Source of the DNA: a virus
Lineage: Duplodnaviria > Caudoviricetes
DNA: 64,000 bases
Reading direction: 5' to 3' (one strand)
IMG/VR virus record: IMGVR_UViG_2821731843_000002
Shown one piece after another: positions 1-43,060 of the stretch. Each line of letters begins with the position of its first letter. Position 1 is the first letter of the stretch. The notes beneath the pieces were generated by a model. It saw only the letters and a program-made list of their open reading frames with translations, made no database searches and was not told where the DNA came from. Both the position numbers and the translations under genes were made by a program.

Positions 1-790
1 CTAGGGCTGATGTATCCGGAATCCGTTCTTTGGCCGCTCTATTCTTGCTGCAGCTGTCTTGAATGGCTGCTTCGCAGAATCAAATTTTCTGCATCTGCCA
101 CGTATTTTTGTGCTGCGTGTGCACGCAGCGATATTTCGACATGTCTGCAGTGGGCTCCTACCAGCTGCTCGCTGCGCACCGCGCGAATGTCTGCTTTCGG
201 GAAGCGGCCAAGACTTTGCAAACTCCGTTAACTGCGCATAGCCGCCGTTGGGGCTGACCGCAGCGAAAGTCTGGAACCCGTTATTAGAGCAAAAACACTG
301 CAGTACAGCACCTAGGATTGAGAGCACAATGTATGAATTCATGTCAGTCACGAACGAGCGCATGATGTCATAGCTTCGCCTGAAATTGCTTTCTAGTTCC
401 AGCGCAAGAAAAGGCGCTCTGAGTTTTCGCACCGCCATGATTTCAAACGGTTATTCTCTATCTAGAAAGTCGGCAGTGAACAAAAAGGGCGACTTTCTAG
501 TTCCACGGCTCAAAAATCGCTGGAATTACCGGTGTCTGTGGCATGGGTGGTGGGCATCAGCCTTATTAATATGGCTCTCTGGCGGGCTGGTGGAATTTGC
601 AGAGTTTGGTGCCCCAATACCGGCCGAATGGCGATTTAAGCTCGTTTTAAGCCTTTTTGAAAGACACGCGCCCATTCTGTCCAGATCACGTTTCGTTATC
701 TTAAACGCTCATGTTTTTAAGGCTCTGTCCGGCTTCTTCCACCATCTTCCGGGCTCTTCCGGTTACTGCAATAATAGGTGTCCAACAACA
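1..790 (-). mobile_element. Left end (repressor-side end) of an upstream Mu-like element P0, truncated by the window
   Basis: 388-790 is colinear without indels (offset 38734) with the P1 left end 39122-39524. It ends in ...GTGTCCAACAACA, i.e. 5'-TGTTGTTGGACAC on the minus strand, with a GGACA-N7-TTGCA site at 767-783. Confidence 0.8.
388..790. repeat. 403-bp direct repeat, copy 1 (phage left end)
   Basis: Homologous to 39122-39524. Shared blocks include CTTTCTAGTTCCA, CTAGAAAGTCG, GGTGGAATTTGCAGAGTTTGGTG and CTTCCGGGCTCTTCCGGTTACTGCAATAA. Confidence 0.95.
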
Positions 791-1764: not shown

Positions 1765-2574
1765 TTACGGGATATCAAAATTCCGTATCAACAGCTCACC
1801 ACGCTTCCCCCTGGCGGTTTCCTTGCGGGCCAGGGTGTAGCTGACCTCAACCTCTTCCATCTCAAACCCAGAAAAGATCTCGCGGATCTCGGGGGTGTCG
1901 TTGATCGACATCAGCGCCTTGCCCTTGGCTACCTTCATCCACTGCGCCAGGGCTTCAAAATCATCCGGTGCAAACATCGCCTTGCCATAATCGTCCTCGC
2001 AGCCCCAGTAGGGCGGGTCTAGGTAGAACAGTGCGGTGGGTCGGTCATAGCGGGTGATGAATTCGCTGTAGGGCAAGCATTCGATCACCACGCCGCTCAG
2101 CCGCGCATGAACGTCTTCGAGCATTGGTTCCAACGTTGATAGATTGAATCGGGCCGGGCGGTCCGGTGACACCCCGAAAGACCGCCCTGATATCTTGCCA
2201 CCAAAGGCGTTGCGCTGGAGATATAGAAACCGCGCTGCGCGCTCCAGATCGGTTAGGGTATCAGGCCGGGTGGCCACCAGGCGCTCGAACTCAACGCGGG
2301 TGGTGAGCTGGAACCGCATGCAGTCGATGAACTGCGGATAGTGGCGCTGCAGAATGCGAAACAGGTTGGCGATGTCGCGGCCGAGGTCGTTGATCACTTC
2401 GGCGCGCGGCCGCATCTGGCGGCGCAGGAAGATACCGCCCATGCCGACAAAGGGCTCGGCGTAAAGACCATGTGGGGTGGCGTCCAGGATCGCGGTGATC
2501 CGTTTGGCCAGGTTGCGCTTGCCGCCCATCCAGGGGGCAACAGGTGAGGTGTTTTGAACTGGGGTTAAACGCAC
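1765..2574 (-). CDS. DNA adenine methyltransferase (Dam/D12 class) at the Mu mom position
   Basis: Motifs PWMGGK, EPFVGMGG (motif I), NDL, and YLDPPY (motif IV). Likely GTG start at 2574 after GGAAAAGG, overlapping the com stop. Confidence 0.92.
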   Translation of the reverse strand: MRLTPVQNTSPVAPWMGGKRNLAKRITAILDATPHGLYAEPFVGMGGIFLRRQMRPRAEVINDLGRDIANLFRILQRHYPQFIDCMRFQLTTRVEFERLVATRPDTLTDLERAARFLYLQRNAFGGKISGRSFGVSPDRPARFNLSTLEPMLEDVHARLSGVVIECLPYSEFITRYDRPTALFYLDPPYWGCEDDYGKAMFAPDDFEALAQWMKVAKGKALMSINDTPEIREIFSGFEMEEVEVSYTLARKETARGKRGELLIRNFDIP

Positions 2575-2753
2575 TTTAAAGAGCCTTTTCCATCGCGGTC
2601 TTGCCGCTTGGATAAAGGGCTCTGTTGTGGCCTCAAGTGATTGTGTGCCTTGCATCTTGGGCACTTGATATTGAGCGCGCCGTGTAGGGCATCACTCTCA
2701 ATTTTAAATAGCAGCCGGGCACATTGGCCGCAACGCTGGTCTTGCATGGACAA
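2565..2753 (-). CDS. com: Com-family zinc-finger translational regulator
   Basis: 62 aa with RCGQCARLLFK...IKCPRCKAHN (two CxxC). TTG start preceded by GAGGTGA. Lies directly upstream of the methylase, as com does in Mu. Confidence 0.85.
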   Translation of the reverse strand: MSMQDQRCGQCARLLFKIESDALHGALNIKCPRCKAHNHLRPQQSPLSKRQDRDGKGSLKCV

Positions 2754-16413: not shown

Positions 16414-16488
16414 TGGTTGCGGAGGCGGGATTTGAACCCGCGACCTCCAGCTTATGAGGCTGGCGAGCTACCGCTGCTCTACTCCGCT
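16414..16488 (-). tRNA. tRNA-Met(CAU), initiator-like but atypical
   Basis: 75-nt cloverleaf AGCGGAG-TA-GAGC-AGCGGTA-GCTC-G-CCAGC-CTCATAA-GCTGG-AGGTC-GCGGG-TTCAAAT-CCCGC-CTCCGCA-A-CCA, with encoded CCA. Confidence 0.92.
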
Positions 16489-37121: not shown

Positions 37122-38831
37122 TTAATCTTCTGAGAGTGGATTAACTTTGAAGCGTCTTTCATCCGGCGAATTCCCTGTTTCGTTTGAGTAAGTTTTTATG
37201 AACTCACGCGTATCTCCGTCGTATGTAATGCTACCATGCAGACAGACGCTTGCAACCTTGGGGCTTTTCACTCTCATTCTCTCAAAATGTCTTCGTGTCC
37301 AATCAAGCACGGCTAGTCTGAGGGGGTTTTCTTGTTTGCCATAATTCTTATGCCGTTGATCATTCAGACCCAGAACGTTGAGGCAGAATCCTAAGTAGCT
37401 AGCGCCTTTGAAGTTGTAGAATTCATCCATTCGGCGAATTTCTTGGTAGATTAACCTTGCTACCCTACGATGTATCCATTTGCTGGTTTTGCTTTCGTTG
37501 AAATGAAAAAGCCGACTCCAAACTGTGTTGTGAGTGACGCTCCAACAAATATCGACGGGCTTTCGCACTTGAGATGCTTTGAAGATCAGATCAAATATGA
37601 GGTCCGCGAGGCGTTCATGGAAGCCGTTATTAAATGTGTCTTCTGGTTTGAGTGAAGACCAGATCTCGACGTCCTTGTCGTCAAGAAGTTTCATTAGTGC
37701 ACGCAAAAAATCCACAAGTACAATGAGTCTGGCGTGTTCGTCACGCTGGTAGTATCGACTGTCATCGTCGTTAAGGTTGTAAAGATCGTGGACCATGCTT
37801 TTACAGTTTTCCAAGATTTGGTTCACAGCGAAGCTATCCATGCCATCTAAGCCGTGTGGCGACTCTCCCAACAGGCGCTCAATGTATAGGAGGCTGACGC
37901 GCGTATAAGCTTTCCAATTTTCCGCATCCCATTCGTCACGAATATTGTAGCGTGGGTCCAATGGTGAACTGTGTCTATTTGACAGTGACCGGATCAGCTT
38001 GGGGTTGGCGAAAATTGCGGAGCTGTAGAGCTGGACGTAACCGGACCAACCGGAATCCCAACCACTATCTTCATGGAATATGGGGGAAGTTTTGCAGCTC
38101 AGAAATTCAACGGAGACATTTTGTGCAAATGTATGAAATGAAATTCCCGCCTTATCCTGTGCTGAGACTTCATTAAAAATTGCCTCTGCTGTGTTTGGTG
38201 CAAAGCACGCCATTTCTGCACATACCCTACGATTTGCAAGCAACAACAAAAAATCATGAGCGATTTGTTCGGTTCGGCTCAAATTCCACGGCGTTCCTTT
38301 CTCATTTGGGGGAACCGGTGCAAACTTAATCAAGCTATGTGCCGAGCGTGCTAATTCATGCAGCGCAATCCTTAGCTCTGTGTCACCTTCATGGTGAGTC
38401 GCTCGTTGGTAGAACCAAAAGAACCGGCGGCTGTTCCAACGTGAAAACTTCGGGGGGCGGATATATGAGACGAATACCCAATAGAGTATTGCTAATACGC
38501 AGGGTGCGAGCAGGAAAGAGTCAATTACAAGGCGGTCGTCCATCACAGGCAACAACGGCCAGCCGTTGTAGAACCACACCTCAGCTAGCAATTTCAGTAC
38601 AAAAACTGCCACGAAGAGCCAGAAGCTAAGTTGATAGACAGGTATTGGAGCGAGTGAGAGTCGCAATTTGTTTCTATAGTCCGATATGGTGTATATCACC
38701 AAAAGTAACGCAAGCGCAGATAGATAATCTGAAACGCCAAAAAGTGACTCTGAACCAGATGATCCGGCGGCAACCCAGCATACCTCAAACTCGTAGTATG
38801 CGTCCTTTAAAATCTCTTTGCAGGTCTGCAA
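37122..38831 (-). CDS. Large accessory protein with N-terminal TM helices and a soluble domain
   Basis: 569 aa, AT-richer than the core. About three hydrophobic segments in the first 125 aa. No family recognised. Confidence 0.75.
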   Translation of the reverse strand: MQTCKEILKDAYYEFEVCWVAAGSSGSESLFGVSDYLSALALLLVIYTISDYRNKLRLSLAPIPVYQLSFWLFVAVFVLKLLAEVWFYNGWPLLPVMDDRLVIDSFLLAPCVLAILYWVFVSYIRPPKFSRWNSRRFFWFYQRATHHEGDTELRIALHELARSAHSLIKFAPVPPNEKGTPWNLSRTEQIAHDFLLLLANRRVCAEMACFAPNTAEAIFNEVSAQDKAGISFHTFAQNVSVEFLSCKTSPIFHEDSGWDSGWSGYVQLYSSAIFANPKLIRSLSNRHSSPLDPRYNIRDEWDAENWKAYTRVSLLYIERLLGESPHGLDGMDSFAVNQILENCKSMVHDLYNLNDDDSRYYQRDEHARLIVLVDFLRALMKLLDDKDVEIWSSLKPEDTFNNGFHERLADLIFDLIFKASQVRKPVDICWSVTHNTVWSRLFHFNESKTSKWIHRRVARLIYQEIRRMDEFYNFKGASYLGFCLNVLGLNDQRHKNYGKQENPLRLAVLDWTRRHFERMRVKSPKVASVCLHGSITYDGDTREFIKTYSNETGNSPDERRFKVNPLSED

Positions 38832-39121
38832 TAGCCAACCCCTAATTGCTTACAATGATCATCTGGCACAATAACCTATGTTTCTTCTGCACGACATGAC
38901 ATTTGTAGTGTTCCGTTGTTACGGGTCTCGTACTTAAACAATGATGTTGCGCGATGGGCGAATGGCTAGTCTTGTGAAGTTTCACCGCAGCATCAGATCG
39001 GTCAGCAAAAGGTAAGTATGAACCGTCCGCTCGACTTTGCAAAGTGCTCTATCTGCGCATAGCTGTCCTTGGAGCCGATGGCAGCGAATGGCCGCATAAT
39101 GTTATGGTTCCCCCTAATATC

Positions 39122-39524
39122 GCTTTCTAGTTCCAGCATTAGAAATGGCGTACTAAATTTCCCTACCGCCATGATTTAAAACAACCTTTCTATATCTAGA
39201 AAGTCGTCACCGAACAAAAAAGGCGACTTTCTAGTTCCAAGGTGCAAAAGTCGCTGTAATTATGAGCGTTTGAAGTATCGGAGAAGGGCACTAGCCTTAT
39301 TATTATGGCGCTCTGGGACGCTGGTGGAATTTGCAGAGTTTGGTGTCCCAATATCGGCCTATTGGCGTTTAAAGCCTGTTTTGAGCCTTTTTGAAAGACA
39401 CGCGTCCAATCTGCCCTGGTCACGCTCGGTTGCCTCAAACGCCCTTGTTTTTAAGACTCTATCCGGCTTCTTCCGCCATCTTCCGGGCTCTTCCGGTTAC
39501 TGCAATAACAAGTGTCCAACAACA
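39122..39524. repeat. P1 left end (403-bp repeat, copy 2)
   Basis: Minus strand starts TGTTGTTGGACAC. GGACA-N7-(T/C)TGCA sites at 39501-39517 and 39332-39348, and TCCG at a 10-bp period (39462, 39472, 39482, 39492). Confidence 0.92.
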
Positions 39525-40045: not shown

Positions 40046-40753
40046 TTACCGAGGTCCATCGATCCATAGCCAGCTGAGATTTTCATATTTTATCCATTCG
40101 CTGTTGAAGTAAGCCACATCGACGACGATGCAGATCAGACCAATGGGCAGAATGATTTCGAAGAGTAAATAACCTACAAATGCTGGATAACCGATCAAAT
40201 TGTGAAATAGTTGCCGCGCCAACTTCCAATACATGTATTTGGAATATGAGAGAATTTGCAGCCTCGCCTCTTCCATGACGCGAATAGCTTCAGACATCCT
40301 TTCATCCTGCGACAAAGTGCTGTTCTCATCTTGGAAAATGTCATGAATACTCTCAGACACTTCTACTACTTGATCGTTCGGTTGATAGTAAGGTTCCTTA
40401 AATTTAGCCATCTTGCGTACAGTGAATTTGCAAGCTGGTACTTTCAATATGTTGATGACGTTCGAATTTAGTGACATCACATCAGTCAACTTGTGAGCGC
40501 TTCCGATCCAGTTCTTTTGCCAAGTCATGAAGAAGACATCTGAAATCAGGTTTATTGCGTACCGAACAAACAGCAAAGCAGTTACCCAAAACAGGGTTGT
40601 GGTGACATACTCTGGCTTGAGCTTGATGTTGACCGCTGTTTCGGCCATTGGGGCCAAATCAATATCAAATATGTATATTGATAAGAATGCTGTCGCTGAT
40701 ACGAAAAATGATGTTTGGCGTTTCAGAGTCAGCGTACTCAGTGGTTTTTCCAT
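40046..40753 (-). CDS. Accessory membrane protein downstream of the P2' modification cassette
   Basis: 235 aa, AT-rich, with two N-terminal and one or two C-terminal TM segments. Confidence 0.7.
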   Translation of the reverse strand: MEKPLSTLTLKRQTSFFVSATAFLSIYIFDIDLAPMAETAVNIKLKPEYVTTTLFWVTALLFVRYAINLISDVFFMTWQKNWIGSAHKLTDVMSLNSNVINILKVPACKFTVRKMAKFKEPYYQPNDQVVEVSESIHDIFQDENSTLSQDERMSEAIRVMEEARLQILSYSKYMYWKLARQLFHNLIGYPAFVGYLLFEIILPIGLICIVVDVAYFNSEWIKYENLSWLWIDGPR

Positions 40754-40868: not shown

Positions 40869-40890
40869 GAACGGGGTTTAAACCCCGTTC
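40869..40890. terminator. Perfect 22-bp palindrome after the formyltransferase gene
   Basis: GAACGGGGTTTAAACCCCGTTC. Could be a terminator hairpin or a protein-binding site. Confidence 0.5.
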
Positions 40891-40934: not shown

Positions 40935-41492
40935 TCACCGTGCCAATGCTTGCACGGCTTCTGCCAATAGATCTGCCCCCATTGGTGCCAGCGCCCGCCT
41001 CCACAGCCCCATCGCCGTTTCACCGGGCAGGATCTGCACTTGGTCCTGGAGCCTTCGCCCGTTGGCAATGACCGCCGGTCCGCCGTCAATTGCATCCGTC
41101 AGCCAGTAGACGGTGCCGCCGGTAAACCGCGCGTCGTCTGCCAGGCAATCGCGGATGGCGTTACGGCCCTTGTAGGCGGGGAGAATAGACGGGTGGTAGC
41201 CGATAGCCCCCAGCCGGGCCCATTCAATGAACCAGCCCGGCACAATGCGGAAGGAGTGGGCAGATATAACCAGATCCGGACGCCAGGGCAGATCAGCCGA
41301 CAACAGGGGCAGGGCGCGCGGCTTGACCGTGCACGGCAGCTCCAGGTCCTTGGCGGCGCGGGCAGCCAGACGGTCCTCAGGCTCAGTTATCAACGCTGTT
41401 GCAACTCCTTCGGCATCAAGGCGTCGCAGGGTCTCGGCAGCAAGCCAGGAACAGCCAATCACGGCCACGCGGAACTGATTGTTACTCGACAT
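40935..41492 (-). CDS. Formyltransferase (Fmt/PurN N-terminal domain only)
   Basis: YHPSILPAYKG, GGTVYWL...DGGP. 185 aa, overlapping the upstream gene. Confidence 0.88.
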   Translation of the reverse strand: MSSNNQFRVAVIGCSWLAAETLRRLDAEGVATALITEPEDRLAARAAKDLELPCTVKPRALPLLSADLPWRPDLVISAHSFRIVPGWFIEWARLGAIGYHPSILPAYKGRNAIRDCLADDARFTGGTVYWLTDAIDGGPAVIANGRRLQDQVQILPGETAMGLWRRALAPMGADLLAEAVQALAR

Positions 41493-42558
41493 AGCGAAAC
41501 CCCTGTACTGCTCGGAAATGCCCGCCTAAGCGACCTTTGATGCCGCTGGACTTGGCGGATGATTTTTGGCCGAGATTGGCTGAGGTTTGTGCCCAAAGCG
41601 GTTGCGCCCTGAGCGCCGTGGCAAGGCCGGGATGGGACGTGTGGAACAGGGTGGGCAAGGGGCGTTGATAGCGGTTCACACCGCGCCGCCACAAGGCGCA
41701 CAGCTCATTTAGGAACCGCAGCCCCAGCCCTGCTCCTTGCCATTCGGGCATGATAACAAGGCGGCAGGCGCGGGCCTCAACCAGCCCCGGTCTAGGGCTG
41801 AAACAGATATGCGCCACGGGTTCGTTGTCGACAAAGCCGACGTAGTAATCAGCGGCCACCATGCGGGGCAGCTTCAGGTAGTGATGCGGCTCAAACAGGG
41901 GCCAGTAGGAACCATCGGTTTTGTGAATGTCCATTGTGAGGCGCGGGGGCCGTCGAAGACGCCTCCATTTGAATTCGGCGCTACGGGTATCAATGACCCA
42001 ATCGGGCTGCAGCCATTGCACAACGTCGTCGTGGCAAGTGACGCCGACAAACTGACCTCCGGTGCGCCGCCAGGCCTTGGCAAATGCCGCCGCGCCAATC
42101 CGGGCCACGCGGCGATCAATTGTCGATGTGAACTCGTCCACAACGGCCAGCTTTGGCTTGTCACACAGCAGGCGGGCGAGGTTGGCGCGGAACTGTTCGC
42201 CGTTGGATAACAGCCCATGCGGGCGCAGCCAGCTCGGGACCGATCCGAGCCCAACGGCGGCCAGGGCAGCCGTGACACTGTCCATTTCAGCGTCTGGGGC
42301 AATGGCCTCTATAATGGCCTGGTCTATGGGCCACTTTGGGTCGCGGGTGATAGCCTTGCCAAAGAGCGCGCGCCCGAGTGAGGTTTTTCCGGTACCAGAC
42401 GGCCCAACAATGAGGCCGACGCCCCAAGGCTGTGCGTTTAAATCGGCTTCAACGGTCAATTTAAAGTCGGCGTCGCCTTCGACATTGAACATGCTGGAGA
42501 CCCGCGCGGCACGGTAGGTTTCAGGAATGGGCGATTTGTGGTGGATCTCGACCTTCAT
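41482..42558 (-). CDS. ABC-type ATPase fused to a GNAT acyltransferase-like domain
   Basis: Walker A GPSGTGKT, signature LSNGEQ, Walker B VVDEF and H-loop TCH. C-terminal RLVIMPEWQGAGLG is GNAT motif A. Confidence 0.88.
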   Translation of the reverse strand: MKVEIHHKSPIPETYRAARVSSMFNVEGDADFKLTVEADLNAQPWGVGLIVGPSGTGKTSLGRALFGKAITRDPKWPIDQAIIEAIAPDAEMDSVTAALAAVGLGSVPSWLRPHGLLSNGEQFRANLARLLCDKPKLAVVDEFTSTIDRRVARIGAAAFAKAWRRTGGQFVGVTCHDDVVQWLQPDWVIDTRSAEFKWRRLRRPPRLTMDIHKTDGSYWPLFEPHHYLKLPRMVAADYYVGFVDNEPVAHICFSPRPGLVEARACRLVIMPEWQGAGLGLRFLNELCALWRRGVNRYQRPLPTLFHTSHPGLATALRAQPLWAQTSANLGQKSSAKSSGIKGRLGGHFRAVQGFRYVE

Positions 42559-42755
42559 GTGTTCACCACCTTGCAGCGGTGCCCGTGGCCGGTCAGCTGT
42601 TCAAATAGGGATTTCTGCGCCGGTTCGTCCTGGACCAGGACAATGACGCCGAACTGCTGTTTATAGCGGTTCCCCTTGGGTATTCCGTGGGTTCCCGGCG
42701 GTAGCGGGGGCAGGTTGATTTCTTCGGATTTGGCCACTGGAGCCTTCCTTTCCAT
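42555..42755 (-). CDS. Small protein heading the modification cassette
   Basis: 66 aa from ATG 42755, or 60 aa from GTG 42737. QFGVIVLVQDE...LFEQL...CKVV. ATGA overlap with the ATPase-GNAT gene. Confidence 0.7.
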   Translation of the reverse strand: MERKAPVAKSEEINLPPLPPGTHGIPKGNRYKQQFGVIVLVQDEPAQKSLFEQLTGHGHRCKVVNT

Positions 42756-42915
42756 CGCGCTCCTGGCGCTTGGATAAAGGGCTCTGTTGTGGCCTCAAAT
42801 GATTGTGTGCCTTGCATCTTGGGCACTTGATGTTGAGCGCGCCGTTTAGGGCATCACTCTCTATTTTAAATAGCAGTCGGGCACATTGGCCGCAACGCTG
42901 GTCTTGCATGGACAA
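42661..42915 (-). CDS. com: Com-family zinc-finger regulator (P2' copy, longer C-terminus)
   Basis: First ~57 aa almost identical to 2565-2753. Confidence 0.85.
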   Translation of the reverse strand: MSMQDQRCGQCARLLFKIESDALNGALNIKCPRCKAHNHLRPQQSPLSKRQERDGKEGSSGQIRRNQPAPATAGNPRNTQGEPL

Positions 42916-43060
42916 GTGGAATCACCTCAGAAAGGCCACACCCTCGCGAGGGGTGGGAGCGGCCATGAGGAAATGCTGGTCGGCGGGGTTTAGTGTGAAT
43001 ATTAGTCCCCGTGTTAAGGAGTGTTACAGCACCCCTTAGCCTCCCTGTAAGGAGGCGTTA
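42749..43060. repeat. com module, copy 2
   Basis: Near-identical to 2587-2899. Confidence 0.95.

What the first reader, a model, noticed from the sequence alone, without database searches (positions are those of the whole stretch)
40935..43060. Swappable DNA-modification cassette behind com: ATPase-GNAT plus formyltransferase replaces the Dam methylase
Seen: both prophages share a near-identical ~312-bp com module. Identity stops a few bases before the next start codon (GGCTCtttaaaGTG in P1, GGCTCcaGTG in P2'). P1 continues into an adenine methylase. P2' continues into a coupled trio: small protein, ABC-ATPase/GNAT fusion, stand-alone formyltransferase. Known: in Mu this slot holds mom, a GNAT-fold enzyme that hypermodifies adenine against restriction and is translationally activated by Com. 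Inference: the trio is an alternative late-expressed hypermodification pathway, possibly an ATP-dependent acylation or formylation of a base whose chemistry I cannot name from sequence.
Basis: partly seen in the sequence, partly recalled or inferred. Interest (0 to 1): 0.82.

Follow-up and report, generated by a model that had tools for sequence, protein, structure and literature searches.

The report
Com-gated phage ATPase-acyltransferase DNA-modification cassette
Two sibling Mu-like prophages share the same Com translational switch, but one drives a Dam methylase and the other a widespread, never-tested three-gene cassette that most likely puts an acyl or formyl mark on phage DNA.

Summary
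A 313-bp com module (2587-2899 and 42749-43060, 96-99% identical) is followed by a D12 Dam methylase in one prophage. In the other it is followed by overlapping genes for a 60-66 aa protein, an ABC-ATPase/GNAT fusion and an N-domain-only formyltransferase.

The trio is not unique. It equals phiE255 gp28-30 and phrog_11143. It recurs in over 570 viral contigs and in phages of many phyla.

The small protein matches the C-terminal ~40 aa tail of the ParB-like protein that precedes the enzyme in other phages.

Among 80 com-bearing viral loci, the gene after com is a C5 methylase (29), this ATPase-GNAT (25), an N6/N4 methylase (10), Dam (4) or Mom (1). The slot is therefore a DNA-modification slot.

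The com 3' end carries an anti-Shine-Dalgarno box. It pairs with the start region of either cassette.

Iyer and Aravind predicted this ABC-GNAT family to acylate a DNA base. I found no experimental test in the held literature. This scan has already noted the cassette in at least 26 other genomes.

The chemistry is unresolved. The GNAT is not Mom-like in sequence and keeps an acyl-CoA motif. The formyltransferase family lacks the canonical catalytic Asn.

The parts
42749..43060 (-). com module shared with the other prophage (its copy is 2587-2899): intergenic leader, the com start and most of com
   Evidence: the repeat finder D2 and D3, 96% and 99% identity; alignment A1
42661..42915 (-). com: Mu-type zinc-ribbon translational activator. 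It is 84 aa here and 62 aa in P1, because the two copies diverge after the junction.
   Evidence: PF10122 3.2e-12, 46.1 bits; phrog_6417 'translational regulator' and phrog_13819 'gpCom'
42732..42797 (-). Predicted translation-inhibition hairpin. The GGCCAC and GAGCCCTTT boxes inside com pair with the Shine-Dalgarno region (AAGGAAGGCTC) and the GTG start of the small ORF. An inner GCGC/GCGC hairpin sits between them.
   Evidence: MFE -32.2 kcal/mol, z -2.77, 0 of 200 shuffles as stable. The same architecture stands before Dam in P1 and in related loci, with GTG/CAC changing to TTG/CAA. The inner hairpin covaries. 5'-box to start-region complementarity is enriched.
42555..42737 (-). Small protein, 60 aa from GTG 42737 or 66 aa from the in-frame ATG 42755. 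Its last ~40 aa form a beta-alpha-beta-like mini-domain homologous to the C-terminal tail of ParB_N proteins that precede the ATPase-GNAT in other phages.
   Evidence: phrog_28816 7.9e-8; tail homologues end at or overlap the ATPase-GNAT start in 64 of 80 loci; ParB_N found in the long forms
41482..42558 (-). ABC-ATPase (residues ~1-195) fused to a GNAT acyltransferase (residues ~200-358). This is the core enzyme.
   Evidence: PF00005, PF00583, PF13508; phrog_11143 6.5e-132 over the full length; invariant Walker A, LSxGE signature, DE Walker B, H-loop and QxxGxG motif in 51 sequences; AF2 pLDDT 85.5; GNAT-domain model Z 15 to RimI-type GNATs
40935..41492 (-). Stand-alone formyltransferase N-domain protein (185 aa). 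It has the HPSxLP folate loop, His and Asp, but Gly in place of the catalytic Asn.
   Evidence: PF00551 6e-16, 59.1 bits; phrog_9240 3.7e-35; PDB sugar N-formyltransferase, FDH and PurN matches; family-wide residue tally
40869..40890 (.). Perfect GC-rich hairpin 45 nt after the formyltransferase stop. It may mark the operon end. GC content drops from ~63% to ~42% beyond it.
   Evidence: sequence read; composition profile; no U-run on the minus strand, so its role as a terminator is uncertain
1765..2753 (-). Counterpart in the other prophage: com (2565-2753) followed by Dam methylase (1765-2574, GTG start), with the same hairpin architecture (2569-2635)

Best explanation
The three genes behind com form the Mu-type, ParB-less version of a widespread phage cassette: a ParB tail domain, an ABC-ATPase/GNAT enzyme and an atypical formyltransferase. 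The cassette most likely modifies phage DNA bases after replication and late in infection, to escape host restriction. It does the job that Dam does in the sibling prophage and that Mom does in Mu.

Proposed mechanism:
1. Com binds the 3' end of its own coding region in the late mRNA. This opens a hairpin that hides the Shine-Dalgarno site and start codon of the small ORF. The structure is shown; its function is inferred from Mu com-mom.
2. The three overlapping ORFs are then translated by coupling (shown by the overlaps).
3. The soluble ABC ATPase dimerises on ATP. It uses ATP to engage DNA or expose a base, helped by the small adaptor domain that in other phages is the tail of a DNA-loading ParB protein (inferred).
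4. The GNAT domain keeps the acyl-CoA pyrophosphate loop QxxGxG. It transfers an acyl group from an acyl-CoA to an exocyclic amine of a base. N4 of cytosine is the favoured guess, by analogy with TmcA/NAT10 and because ASCH genes sometimes accompany the cassette (inferred).
5. The folate-type formyltransferase either formylates an amine on the installed group or supplies a formyl unit (inferred, and the weakest step).
For: Position and swap:
- The same com module drives Dam in P1 and the trio in P2'. The junction lies inside the 3' arm of the hairpin.

The com slot is a DNA-modification slot:
- Of 80 com loci, 29 carry a C5 MTase, 25 this ATPase-GNAT, 10 an N6_N4 MTase, 4 a D12 Dam directly, 1 Mom and 2 another MTase.

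The cassette is a conserved unit:
- The same trio stands at the same late-region position, after the tail-fibre genes, in phiE255 gp28-30, Pseudomonas phage Komp_PAO1_1 and Porphyromonas phages.
- A formyltransferase follows in 55 of 63 viral loci that have room for it.
- The tail domain precedes the enzyme in 64 of 80 loci.

DNA link:
- The long form of the upstream gene carries ParB_N.
- In Gordonia and Streptococcus phages the cassette sits next to the terminase; some Streptococcus and Oenococcus records also annotate a DNA modification methylase at the locus.
- ParB proteins activate phage DNA T-dioxygenases (PMC13229309).

Enzyme integrity:
- All ATPase and GNAT motifs are invariant in 51 homologues of 47-86% identity.
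- The models are confident.

Precedents:
- Mom is a GNAT that acylates adenine in dsDNA (PMC13219725).
- A PF00551 enzyme, DpdN, is proposed to formylate dPreQ1 in phage DNA (PMC10516641).
- ASCH enzymes hydrolyse N4-acylcytosines (PMC6972931).
- Iyer et al. predicted that this ABC-GNAT family acylates a DNA base, naming Tenacibaculum phage pT24 (PMC7824862). The pT24 homologue was found at E 2e-38.
Against: - No direct evidence of the substrate exists. All the support is contextual.
- The GNAT domain resembles protein and small-molecule acetyltransferases such as RimI, Naa and SpeG at least as well as anything else.
- It has no sequence-profile similarity to Mom.
- The window's version lacks the ParB domain that gives the DNA link elsewhere.
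- The formyltransferase family lacks the canonical catalytic Asn in all 59 members examined, so formyl transfer itself is uncertain.
- The third gene is replaceable: aspartate decarboxylase in phage Jace, ASCH in Streptococcus phages, and absent in 8 of 63 loci.
- N-acyl exocyclic groups on adenine are reported to be unstable (PMC13219725).
- The hairpin statistics are modest. A crude test of whether the start codon is paired in the MFE structure did not beat shuffles.
Confidence: 0.58

Rival explanations
1. The cassette acts on tRNA or aminoacyl-tRNA rather than DNA. One version is an ATP-dependent ac4C-type acetylation like TmcA. Another is acetylation or formylation of Met-tRNA, like AtaT-type GNAT toxins and Fmt, to reprogram translation late in infection.
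For: ATPase plus GNAT is the TmcA/NAT10 logic (established knowledge). The third gene is Fmt/PurN-like. ASCH companions are tRNA ac4C erasers in a 2026 preprint. A small upstream ORF overlapping a GNAT gene recalls GNAT toxin-antitoxin pairs. P1 carries a tRNA-Met.
Against: There is no TmcA-type helicase or tRNA-binding domain. The formyltransferase lacks the C-terminal tRNA-binding domain of Fmt and scores far below the Fmt cut-off (39.5 against 201.5 bits). The partner is a ParB-derived tail, and the neighbours are DNA methylases and terminases. The com slot otherwise holds only DNA-modifying enzymes. The only tRNA gene in the window lies in P1.
Confidence: 0.12
2. The GNAT acetylates a protein, either a host factor such as RNA polymerase or a ribosomal protein, or a virion or packaging protein. 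On this reading the cassette is a host-takeover or maturation function, not a nucleic-acid modifier.
For: The closest structures are N-terminal and protein acetyltransferases: RimI Z 14.4, Naa50, Ard1. Phage GNATs such as Rac acetylate host RNAP (PMC7824862). In Gordonia and Streptococcus phages the cassette lies at the head of the packaging operon.
Against: Structural similarity within the GNAT superfamily does not predict the substrate, as stated for Mom in PMC13219725. This reading does not explain the exact swap with Dam, the company of DNA methylases in the com slot, the ParB fusion, or the folate enzyme.
Confidence: 0.12
3. The enzymes act on the free nucleotide or metabolite pool. They might make or detoxify an acylated or formylated small molecule, or build a precursor that is incorporated before replication. 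On this reading the cassette is a moron or auxiliary metabolic module that only happens to sit behind com.
For: The formyltransferase is PurN-like and is annotated 'phosphoribosylglycinamide formyltransferase'. Phage Jace has an aspartate decarboxylase in the third position. The third gene varies.
Against: Com-gated late translation suits post-replicative modification. In the homologues examined, the ATPase and GNAT domains are nearly always encoded in a single fused ORF (split in Streptococcus phages and pT24), with a ParB tail partner, an arrangement atypical for metabolic enzymes. No other purine or folate genes accompany the cassette.
Confidence: 0.08

Closest known systems
[quoted passage not shown]
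   Same: The domain architecture is the same, an ABC ATPase fused to a GNAT. The window protein is homologous to the named example phage, Tenacibaculum pT24 (31% identity, E 2e-38). It is phage-borne and has no permease.
   Different: Here it sits in the Mu mom/Dam slot under Com. Its partner is only the ~40-aa tail, not a whole ParB protein. The 2013 paper is not held, so I could not check whether it describes the formyltransferase, the ParB tail or the Com linkage.
com-mom of phage Mu (Mom, Pfam PF25680)
   Same: It is the last late operon after the tail-fibre genes. The com zinc-ribbon gene overlaps the start of the downstream gene. A hairpin hides the downstream start. The enzyme is GNAT-fold. 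The presumed purpose is anti-restriction.
   Different: There is no sequence relation to Mom (no PF25680 hit; hhalign probability 0.2%). It keeps the acyl-CoA QxxGxG loop, which I do not see in the Mu Mom sequence. It adds an ABC ATPase, an adaptor and a folate enzyme. Mom works alone with Gly-tRNA (PMC13219725).
TmcA / NAT10 (RNA cytidine N4-acetyltransferases)
   Same: An NTPase is coupled to a GNAT so that ATP hydrolysis drives acetyl-CoA-dependent acylation of a base in a structured nucleic acid.
   Different: The ATPase class is different: an ABC ATPase rather than a helicase-like domain. There is no tRNA-binding domain and no Pfam hit to those families. This is an analogy of mechanism only.
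DpdN, the proposed dPreQ1 formyltransferase of 7-deazaguanine phages (PMC10516641)
   Same: A PF00551 enzyme encoded inside a phage DNA-modification cluster, proposed to formylate an amine on an already modified base.
   Different: The pathway context is different: there are no DpdA or preQ genes here. I did not compare the sequences. The family here lacks the catalytic Asn.
ParB-dependent phage T-dioxygenases (5mYOX; PMC13229309)
   Same: A ParB-like protein encoded just upstream serves as the cognate activator or targeting partner of a post-replicative DNA base-modifying enzyme.
   Different: The enzyme class is different. In this window the ParB domain is missing and only its tail survives.

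Membership tests
Iyer/Aravind ABC-ATPase + GNAT phage DNA-acylation system | A single polypeptide with a complete ABC ATPase followed by a GNAT domain | tested here: met
   PF00005 plus PF00583/PF13508. Walker A, LSxGE, DE, H-loop and QxxGxG are invariant in 51 homologues. Two-domain AF2 model, pLDDT 85.5.
Iyer/Aravind ABC-ATPase + GNAT phage DNA-acylation system | Homology to the exemplar named in the literature (Tenacibaculum phage pT24) | tested here: met
   tblastn: residues 2-315, 31% identity, E 2e-38. The locus was inspected. I did not look up the cited accession itself.
Iyer/Aravind ABC-ATPase + GNAT phage DNA-acylation system | The enzyme acylates a DNA nucleobase | not testable with these tools
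   Needs nucleoside LC-MS or an in vitro assay. No experimental report was found.
Mom (PF25680) | Match to the Mom family profile | tested here: not met
   No PF25680 hit at E <= 0.1, although the profile does detect a true Mom behind com in L091 (4e-41). hhalign of the GNAT-domain alignment against Mu Mom: probability 0.2%.
Mom (PF25680) | GNAT fold | tested here: met
   Domain model pLDDT 86. VIA Z 15.0 (rmsd 2.8, 132 aligned) to 1y9k and Z 14.4 to RimI.
Mom (PF25680) | Com-dependent translation from a start hidden in a hairpin | tested here: inconclusive
   com is present and overlaps the start. The hairpin is predicted (z -2.77) with some covariation and complementarity enrichment. The crude pairing test was not significant. 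Function needs an experiment.
Com (PF10122) | Zinc-ribbon CxxC...CxxC profile match above the gathering score | tested here: met
   46.1 bits against 22.9. The CxxC-N-CPRC motif is conserved in 11 aligned homologues.
Formyltransferase (PF00551; PurN/Fmt/ArnA type) | Profile match, plus the SLLP folate loop and catalytic His and Asp | tested here: met
   59.1 bits against 26.1. HPSILP motif. His and Asp are invariant in 59 of 59 family members.
Formyltransferase (PF00551; PurN/Fmt/ArnA type) | Catalytic Asn two residues before the His (N-x-H) | tested here: not met
   The window has G-Y-H. The position is G48/I6/A4/V1 and never N in 59 members.
Methionyl-tRNA formyltransferase (TIGR00460) / PurN (TIGR00639) equivalogs | Score above the curated cut-off; for Fmt, also a C-terminal tRNA-binding domain | tested here: not met
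   Fmt 39.5 against 201.5 bits; PurN 43.9 against 150.1 bits. The protein is only 185 aa, the N-domain alone.
ParB/Srx (PF02195) partner protein | ParB N-terminal domain in the gene upstream of the ATPase-GNAT | tested here: not met
   The window's 60-66 aa ORF has no Pfam hit. It matches only the C-terminal tail of ParB_N proteins found in 34 of 80 related loci.
TmcA/NAT10 | Helicase-type ATPase, GNAT_acetyltr_2 and tRNA-binding domains | tested here: not met
   None of these Pfam families was found.
Known anti-phage defence systems (PADLOC) | Match to a defence-system protein model | tested here: not met
   Only weak generic ABC hits: mad3 2e-9 over 79 residues.

The most novel reading that the evidence does not exclude
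The cassette installs a chemically new kind of DNA mark. Candidates are an acyl-CoA-derived N-acyl group, such as N4-acetyl- or N4-formyl-cytosine, or an N-formyl-aminoacyl base. It would be written by an ATP-driven ABC clamp fused to a GNAT and completed by an Asn-less folate enzyme.

In addition, the 3' end of com with its anti-Shine-Dalgarno box would be a general plug-in translational switch. Phages would exchange whole DNA-modification cassettes (C5, N6/N4, Dam, Mom, ABC-GNAT) behind it, by recombination at the start codon.
Probability: 0.35. Interest if true: 0.8.

Novelty: new member of a known kind. Interest (0 to 1): 0.55.

Why it matters
If the prediction holds, thousands of phages across many phyla carry an ATP- and acyl-CoA-dependent DNA base acylation. 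No such DNA base modification turned up in my literature searches, and sequencing-based methylome surveys might overlook it if the mark is labile.

This genome offers an unusually clean natural experiment. Two sibling Mu-like prophages in one host share the same Com switch and differ at this slot: Dam in one, the trio in the other. DNA from the two virions can be compared side by side.

The com-slot survey also suggests that the com 3' end is a reusable translational gate for toxic DNA-modifying genes. That would be useful for finding further modification enzymes.

Tried and rejected
- Sequencing runs: no RNA holder is listed. Only two sediment metagenome runs hold 5-6% of the sampled words. 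I did not lay them.
- Fused or longer forms: only 9 hits and no informative fusion. One protein joins the ATPase-GNAT to a Mu portal and may be a gene-call artefact.
- Whole-protein Foldseek: dominated by transporter nucleotide-binding domains, and uninformative for the GNAT half.
- GNAT domain against Mom: no profile similarity. Mom is not among the listed structural matches, which are generic GNATs. That absence proves nothing.
- RNAalifold on a MAFFT alignment: it recovered only the inner 4-bp hairpin, because the 3' arms misalign.
- Crude test of whether the start codon is paired in the MFE structure: 37 of 64 loci, against 70% in 5'-arm shuffles. It is not discriminating in GC-rich RNA.
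- Rfam: nothing but the tRNA.
- PADLOC: only weak ABC hits.
- The 2013 NAR paper is not held under its DOI, PMC id or PubMed id.
- Full-text searches found no paper for COG2401, for phiE255 with formyltransferase, for acetyldeoxycytidine with bacteriophage, or for phage hypermodification with acetyltransferase and formyltransferase.
- The Porphyromonas records label the small ORF an 'acr candidate'. I rejected that reading, because the ORF is homologous to the ParB tail and always abuts the enzyme gene.
Full report
**Observation**

The region lies on the minus strand. The repeat finder shows that 42749-42970 and 42975-43060 repeat 2587-2808 and 2814-2899, at 96% and 99% identity. The alignment shows the identity ending at ...CGCGATGGAAA. 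P1 then reads AAGGCTCTTTAAAGTG, and P2' reads GGAAGGCTCCAGTGGCC.

The shared module encodes Com (PF10122, 46.1 bits; phrog 'translational regulator' and 'gpCom').

Behind it, P1 has a D12-class Dam methylase (TIGR00571 5e-28; phrog_56). P2' has three overlapping ORFs:
- A small ORF, 42555-42737 from a GTG start. An in-frame ATG at 42755 is also possible.
- A 358-aa ABC_tran plus GNAT protein, 41482-42558. Its ATG overlaps the small ORF's stop as ATGA.
- A 185-aa Formyl_trans_N protein, 40935-41492, with an 11-nt overlap.

The cassette is 61-65% GC, like the prophage. GC falls to about 42% just beyond a perfect hairpin at 40869-40890.

**The trio is a known, widespread unit**

The ATPase-GNAT matches phrog_11143 (function unknown) over its full length at 6.5e-132. 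The small ORF matches phrog_28816, and the third gene matches phrog_9240.

tblastn against phage records finds the same three genes, in the same order, after the tail-fibre genes in several phages:
- The Mu-like Burkholderia phage phiE255 (gp28-gp30).
- Pseudomonas phage Komp_PAO1_1.
- Porphyromonas phages.

The protein family has more than 4,700 members at E <= 1e-10 among the candidates scored.

Among the 80 best viral loci:
- A formyltransferase-family gene follows directly in 55 of the 63 loci with at least 600 nt of downstream sequence.
- A homologue of the small protein's C-terminal ~40 residues precedes the enzyme in 64 loci. It nearly always ends in an ATGA overlap or within a few bases of the start.

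The genome in which the window lies carries a single copy.

**What the small protein is**

In 34 of the 80 loci, the gene that carries this tail is long, at 120-300 aa. The same holds in Gordonia phages. Pfam finds a ParB N-terminal domain in seven of ten long forms tested, two of them above the gathering score. GenBank annotators call the corresponding genes 'ParB-like nuclease domain protein'.

The conserved tail is roughly Y-x-x-Q-[YF]-G-V-I-V-x-C-x-D-E-x-x-Q-...-L-...-G-...-K-V-V.

The window's small protein is therefore the detached tail of the ParB partner. I read it as the piece that contacts the enzyme. In the 14 Com-type loci the ParB domain is absent.

**The enzyme**

In 51 homologues of 47-86% identity, the following are invariant or nearly so:
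- Walker A: G52-S54-G55-K58.
- ABC signature: L117-S118-x-G120.
- Walker B: D141-E142.
- H-loop: H176.
- GNAT motif A: Q274-x-x-G277-x-G279.

The AF2 model is confident (pLDDT 85.5), apart from a variable basic loop at residues 330-348. The ATPase half resembles transporter-type nucleotide-binding domains, but the operon has no permease. The separately modelled GNAT half (pLDDT 86) is a canonical GNAT, with Z 15.0 to 1y9k and Z 14.4 to RimI.

It is not a Mom family member. There is no PF25680 hit, although that profile does find a true Mom behind com in L091. hhalign against Mu Mom gives a probability of 0.2%. The Mu Mom sequence does not show the QxxGxG loop. On that basis I favour an acyl-CoA donor here, rather than the aminoacyl-tRNA donor shown for Mom (PMC13219725). 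This is an inference.

**The formyltransferase**

It matches PF00551 well above threshold. It scores far below the PurN and Fmt equivalog cut-offs. Its best solved relatives are a sugar N-formyltransferase, the hydrolase domain of 10-formyl-THF dehydrogenase, and PurN.

In 59 cassette-linked homologues, the His and Asp of the catalytic triad and the HPSLLP folate loop are invariant. The canonical Asn is never present (G48, I6, A4, V1). It is thus a distinct clade. It probably still binds folate, but its exact reaction is open. It lacks the tRNA-binding C-domain of Fmt.

**Why DNA is the likely substrate**

Four lines of context point to DNA.

1. The swap. The same regulatory module drives Dam in one prophage and the trio in its sibling.

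2. It covered 80 viral loci with a Com relative, comprising 71 distinct com 3' regions and biased towards relatives of this Com. The downstream gene is:
   - a C5 cytosine methylase in 29 loci;
   - this ATPase-GNAT in 25;
   - an N6_N4 methylase in 10;
   - a D12 Dam in 4, plus 2 more as the second gene;
   - Mom in 1;
   - another methyltransferase in 2;
   - unassigned in the rest.

3. The ParB linkage, and the position beside terminase genes and, in some records, annotated DNA methylase genes in siphophages. ParB-like proteins have just been shown to activate phage DNA T-dioxygenases (PMC13229309).

4. Prior prediction. [quoted passage not shown] They name Tenacibaculum phage pT24 (PMC7824862, section 3.4.7). 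pT24 has a homologue of the window protein (E 2e-38).

I found no experimental work on the family. The 2013 paper itself is not held.

**The Com switch**

The RNA from the end of the zinc finger to the small ORF folds into a three-tier hairpin:
- GGCCAC pairs with the GTG start (GUGGCC).
- GAGCCCUUU pairs with the Shine-Dalgarno region (AAGG..GGCUC).
- An inner GCGC/GCGC hairpin lies between them.

The MFE is -32.2 kcal/mol, z -2.77, with 0 of 200 shuffles as stable. P1 forms the same structure before Dam (z -2.25). The P1/P2' junction therefore falls inside the 3' arm.

Relatives keep the architecture with changed pairs. GTG pairs with CAC in the window, L017 and L002. TTG pairs with CAA in L009 and L012. 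The inner hairpin shows compensatory changes at 3 of 4 pairs.

Across 64 distinct com loci, the 28-nt box region pairs better with the downstream start region (mean -15.4 kcal/mol) than with two controls:
- Other gene starts in the same loci: -13.5, Mann-Whitney p 8e-4.
- Shuffled 3' arms: -12.4, p 3e-7.

These sequences are related, so the p-values are optimistic. A cruder test was not significant. Part of the box is also constrained by the Com protein sequence (L-R-P).

This resembles the published Mu com-mom arrangement, in which mom starts inside com. Function here is inferred.

**Chemistry**

This part is the most speculative.
- An ATPase coupled to a GNAT that uses acetyl-CoA on a base amine is the logic of TmcA/NAT10 (my knowledge).
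- ASCH genes follow the cassette in Streptococcus phages. ASCH enzymes hydrolyse N4-acylcytosines (PMC6972931).
- N6-acyl adenine is reported to be unstable (PMC13219725).

Together these make N4-acylcytosine the best single guess.

The formyltransferase could formylate an amine on the installed group, as proposed for DpdN on dPreQ1 (PMC10516641). PurN's natural substrate is likewise a glycyl amide. The aspartate decarboxylase in phage Jace hints that the transferred group may derive from an amino acid in some variants.

None of this is shown. The rival readings (tRNA or aminoacyl-tRNA, protein, small molecule) are not excluded.

**Relation to earlier notes of this scan**

The same stretch was noted in an overlapping window. 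The cassette, in ParB-headed or Com-headed form, has been noted in at least 26 other genomes. Several follow-ups reached the same reading and cited the same literature.

What this window adds:
- The side-by-side Dam/trio swap at a defined junction.
- The tally of com-slot occupants.
- The hairpin that is kept across cassettes.

**Verdict**

This is a real, correctly described feature. It is a new member, in ParB-less Com-gated form, of a computationally predicted but experimentally untested phage DNA-acylation system. It is interesting because the chemistry is unknown and the family is very large. It is not new as an idea.

Noticed in passing
window 40046-40753 (-): A 235-aa predicted membrane protein with no match in Pfam, PHROGs, NCBIfam or PADLOC. 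It lies in a 42% GC island between the cassette and the prophage end. It is probably a moron. P1 has an unrelated 262-aa ORF (894-1682) in the same position.
   Followed up: partly
window 37122-38831 (-): A 569-aa protein that matches only phrog_25374 (function unknown, 2.7e-49). It lies in a low-GC (43-49%) stretch outside or between the prophages.
   Followed up: no
window 351-650 and 39085-39384: A 300-nt direct repeat at 78% identity, about 1.5-1.9 kb beyond each modification gene. These are probably the equivalent right ends of the two Mu-like prophages.
   Followed up: no
window 42661-42915 vs 2565-2753: Com is 84 aa in P2' and 62 aa in P1. The two reading frames diverge at the cassette junction. 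The P2' extension overlaps the small ORF in another frame.
   Followed up: partly
L009:6329-7028 and L011 (IMG/VR): In close relatives (72% identity), a 141-aa ORF with an N-terminus that looks BLUF-like (by eye; not scanned) sits where the formyltransferase usually is. A 74-aa remnant of a second ATPase-GNAT C-terminus follows it.
   Followed up: no
L003:3986-5055 and L089:2989-4058 (Streptococcus phages): The ABC and GNAT halves are annotated as separate CDS about 120 nt apart, and tblastn needs two pieces. The cause could be a split gene, a frameshift or an insertion. An ASCH gene follows, then the terminase.
   Followed up: no
L090-L169 (com loci): The commonest gene behind com is a ~300-aa C5 cytosine methylase. 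Its start region, ...CTCGTGTGGCTC..., is highly conserved and complementary to the com boxes. L095 and L159 carry a C5 methylase followed by Dam.
   Followed up: partly
window 16414-16488 (-): tRNA-Met (CAU) inside the P1 structural region. It is the only tRNA and the only Rfam hit in the window.
   Followed up: no
P0122 (639 aa, ENA): One database protein joins an ATPase-GNAT (57% identity) to a Mu portal domain (PF06074). It may be a gene-call or assembly artefact.
   Followed up: no
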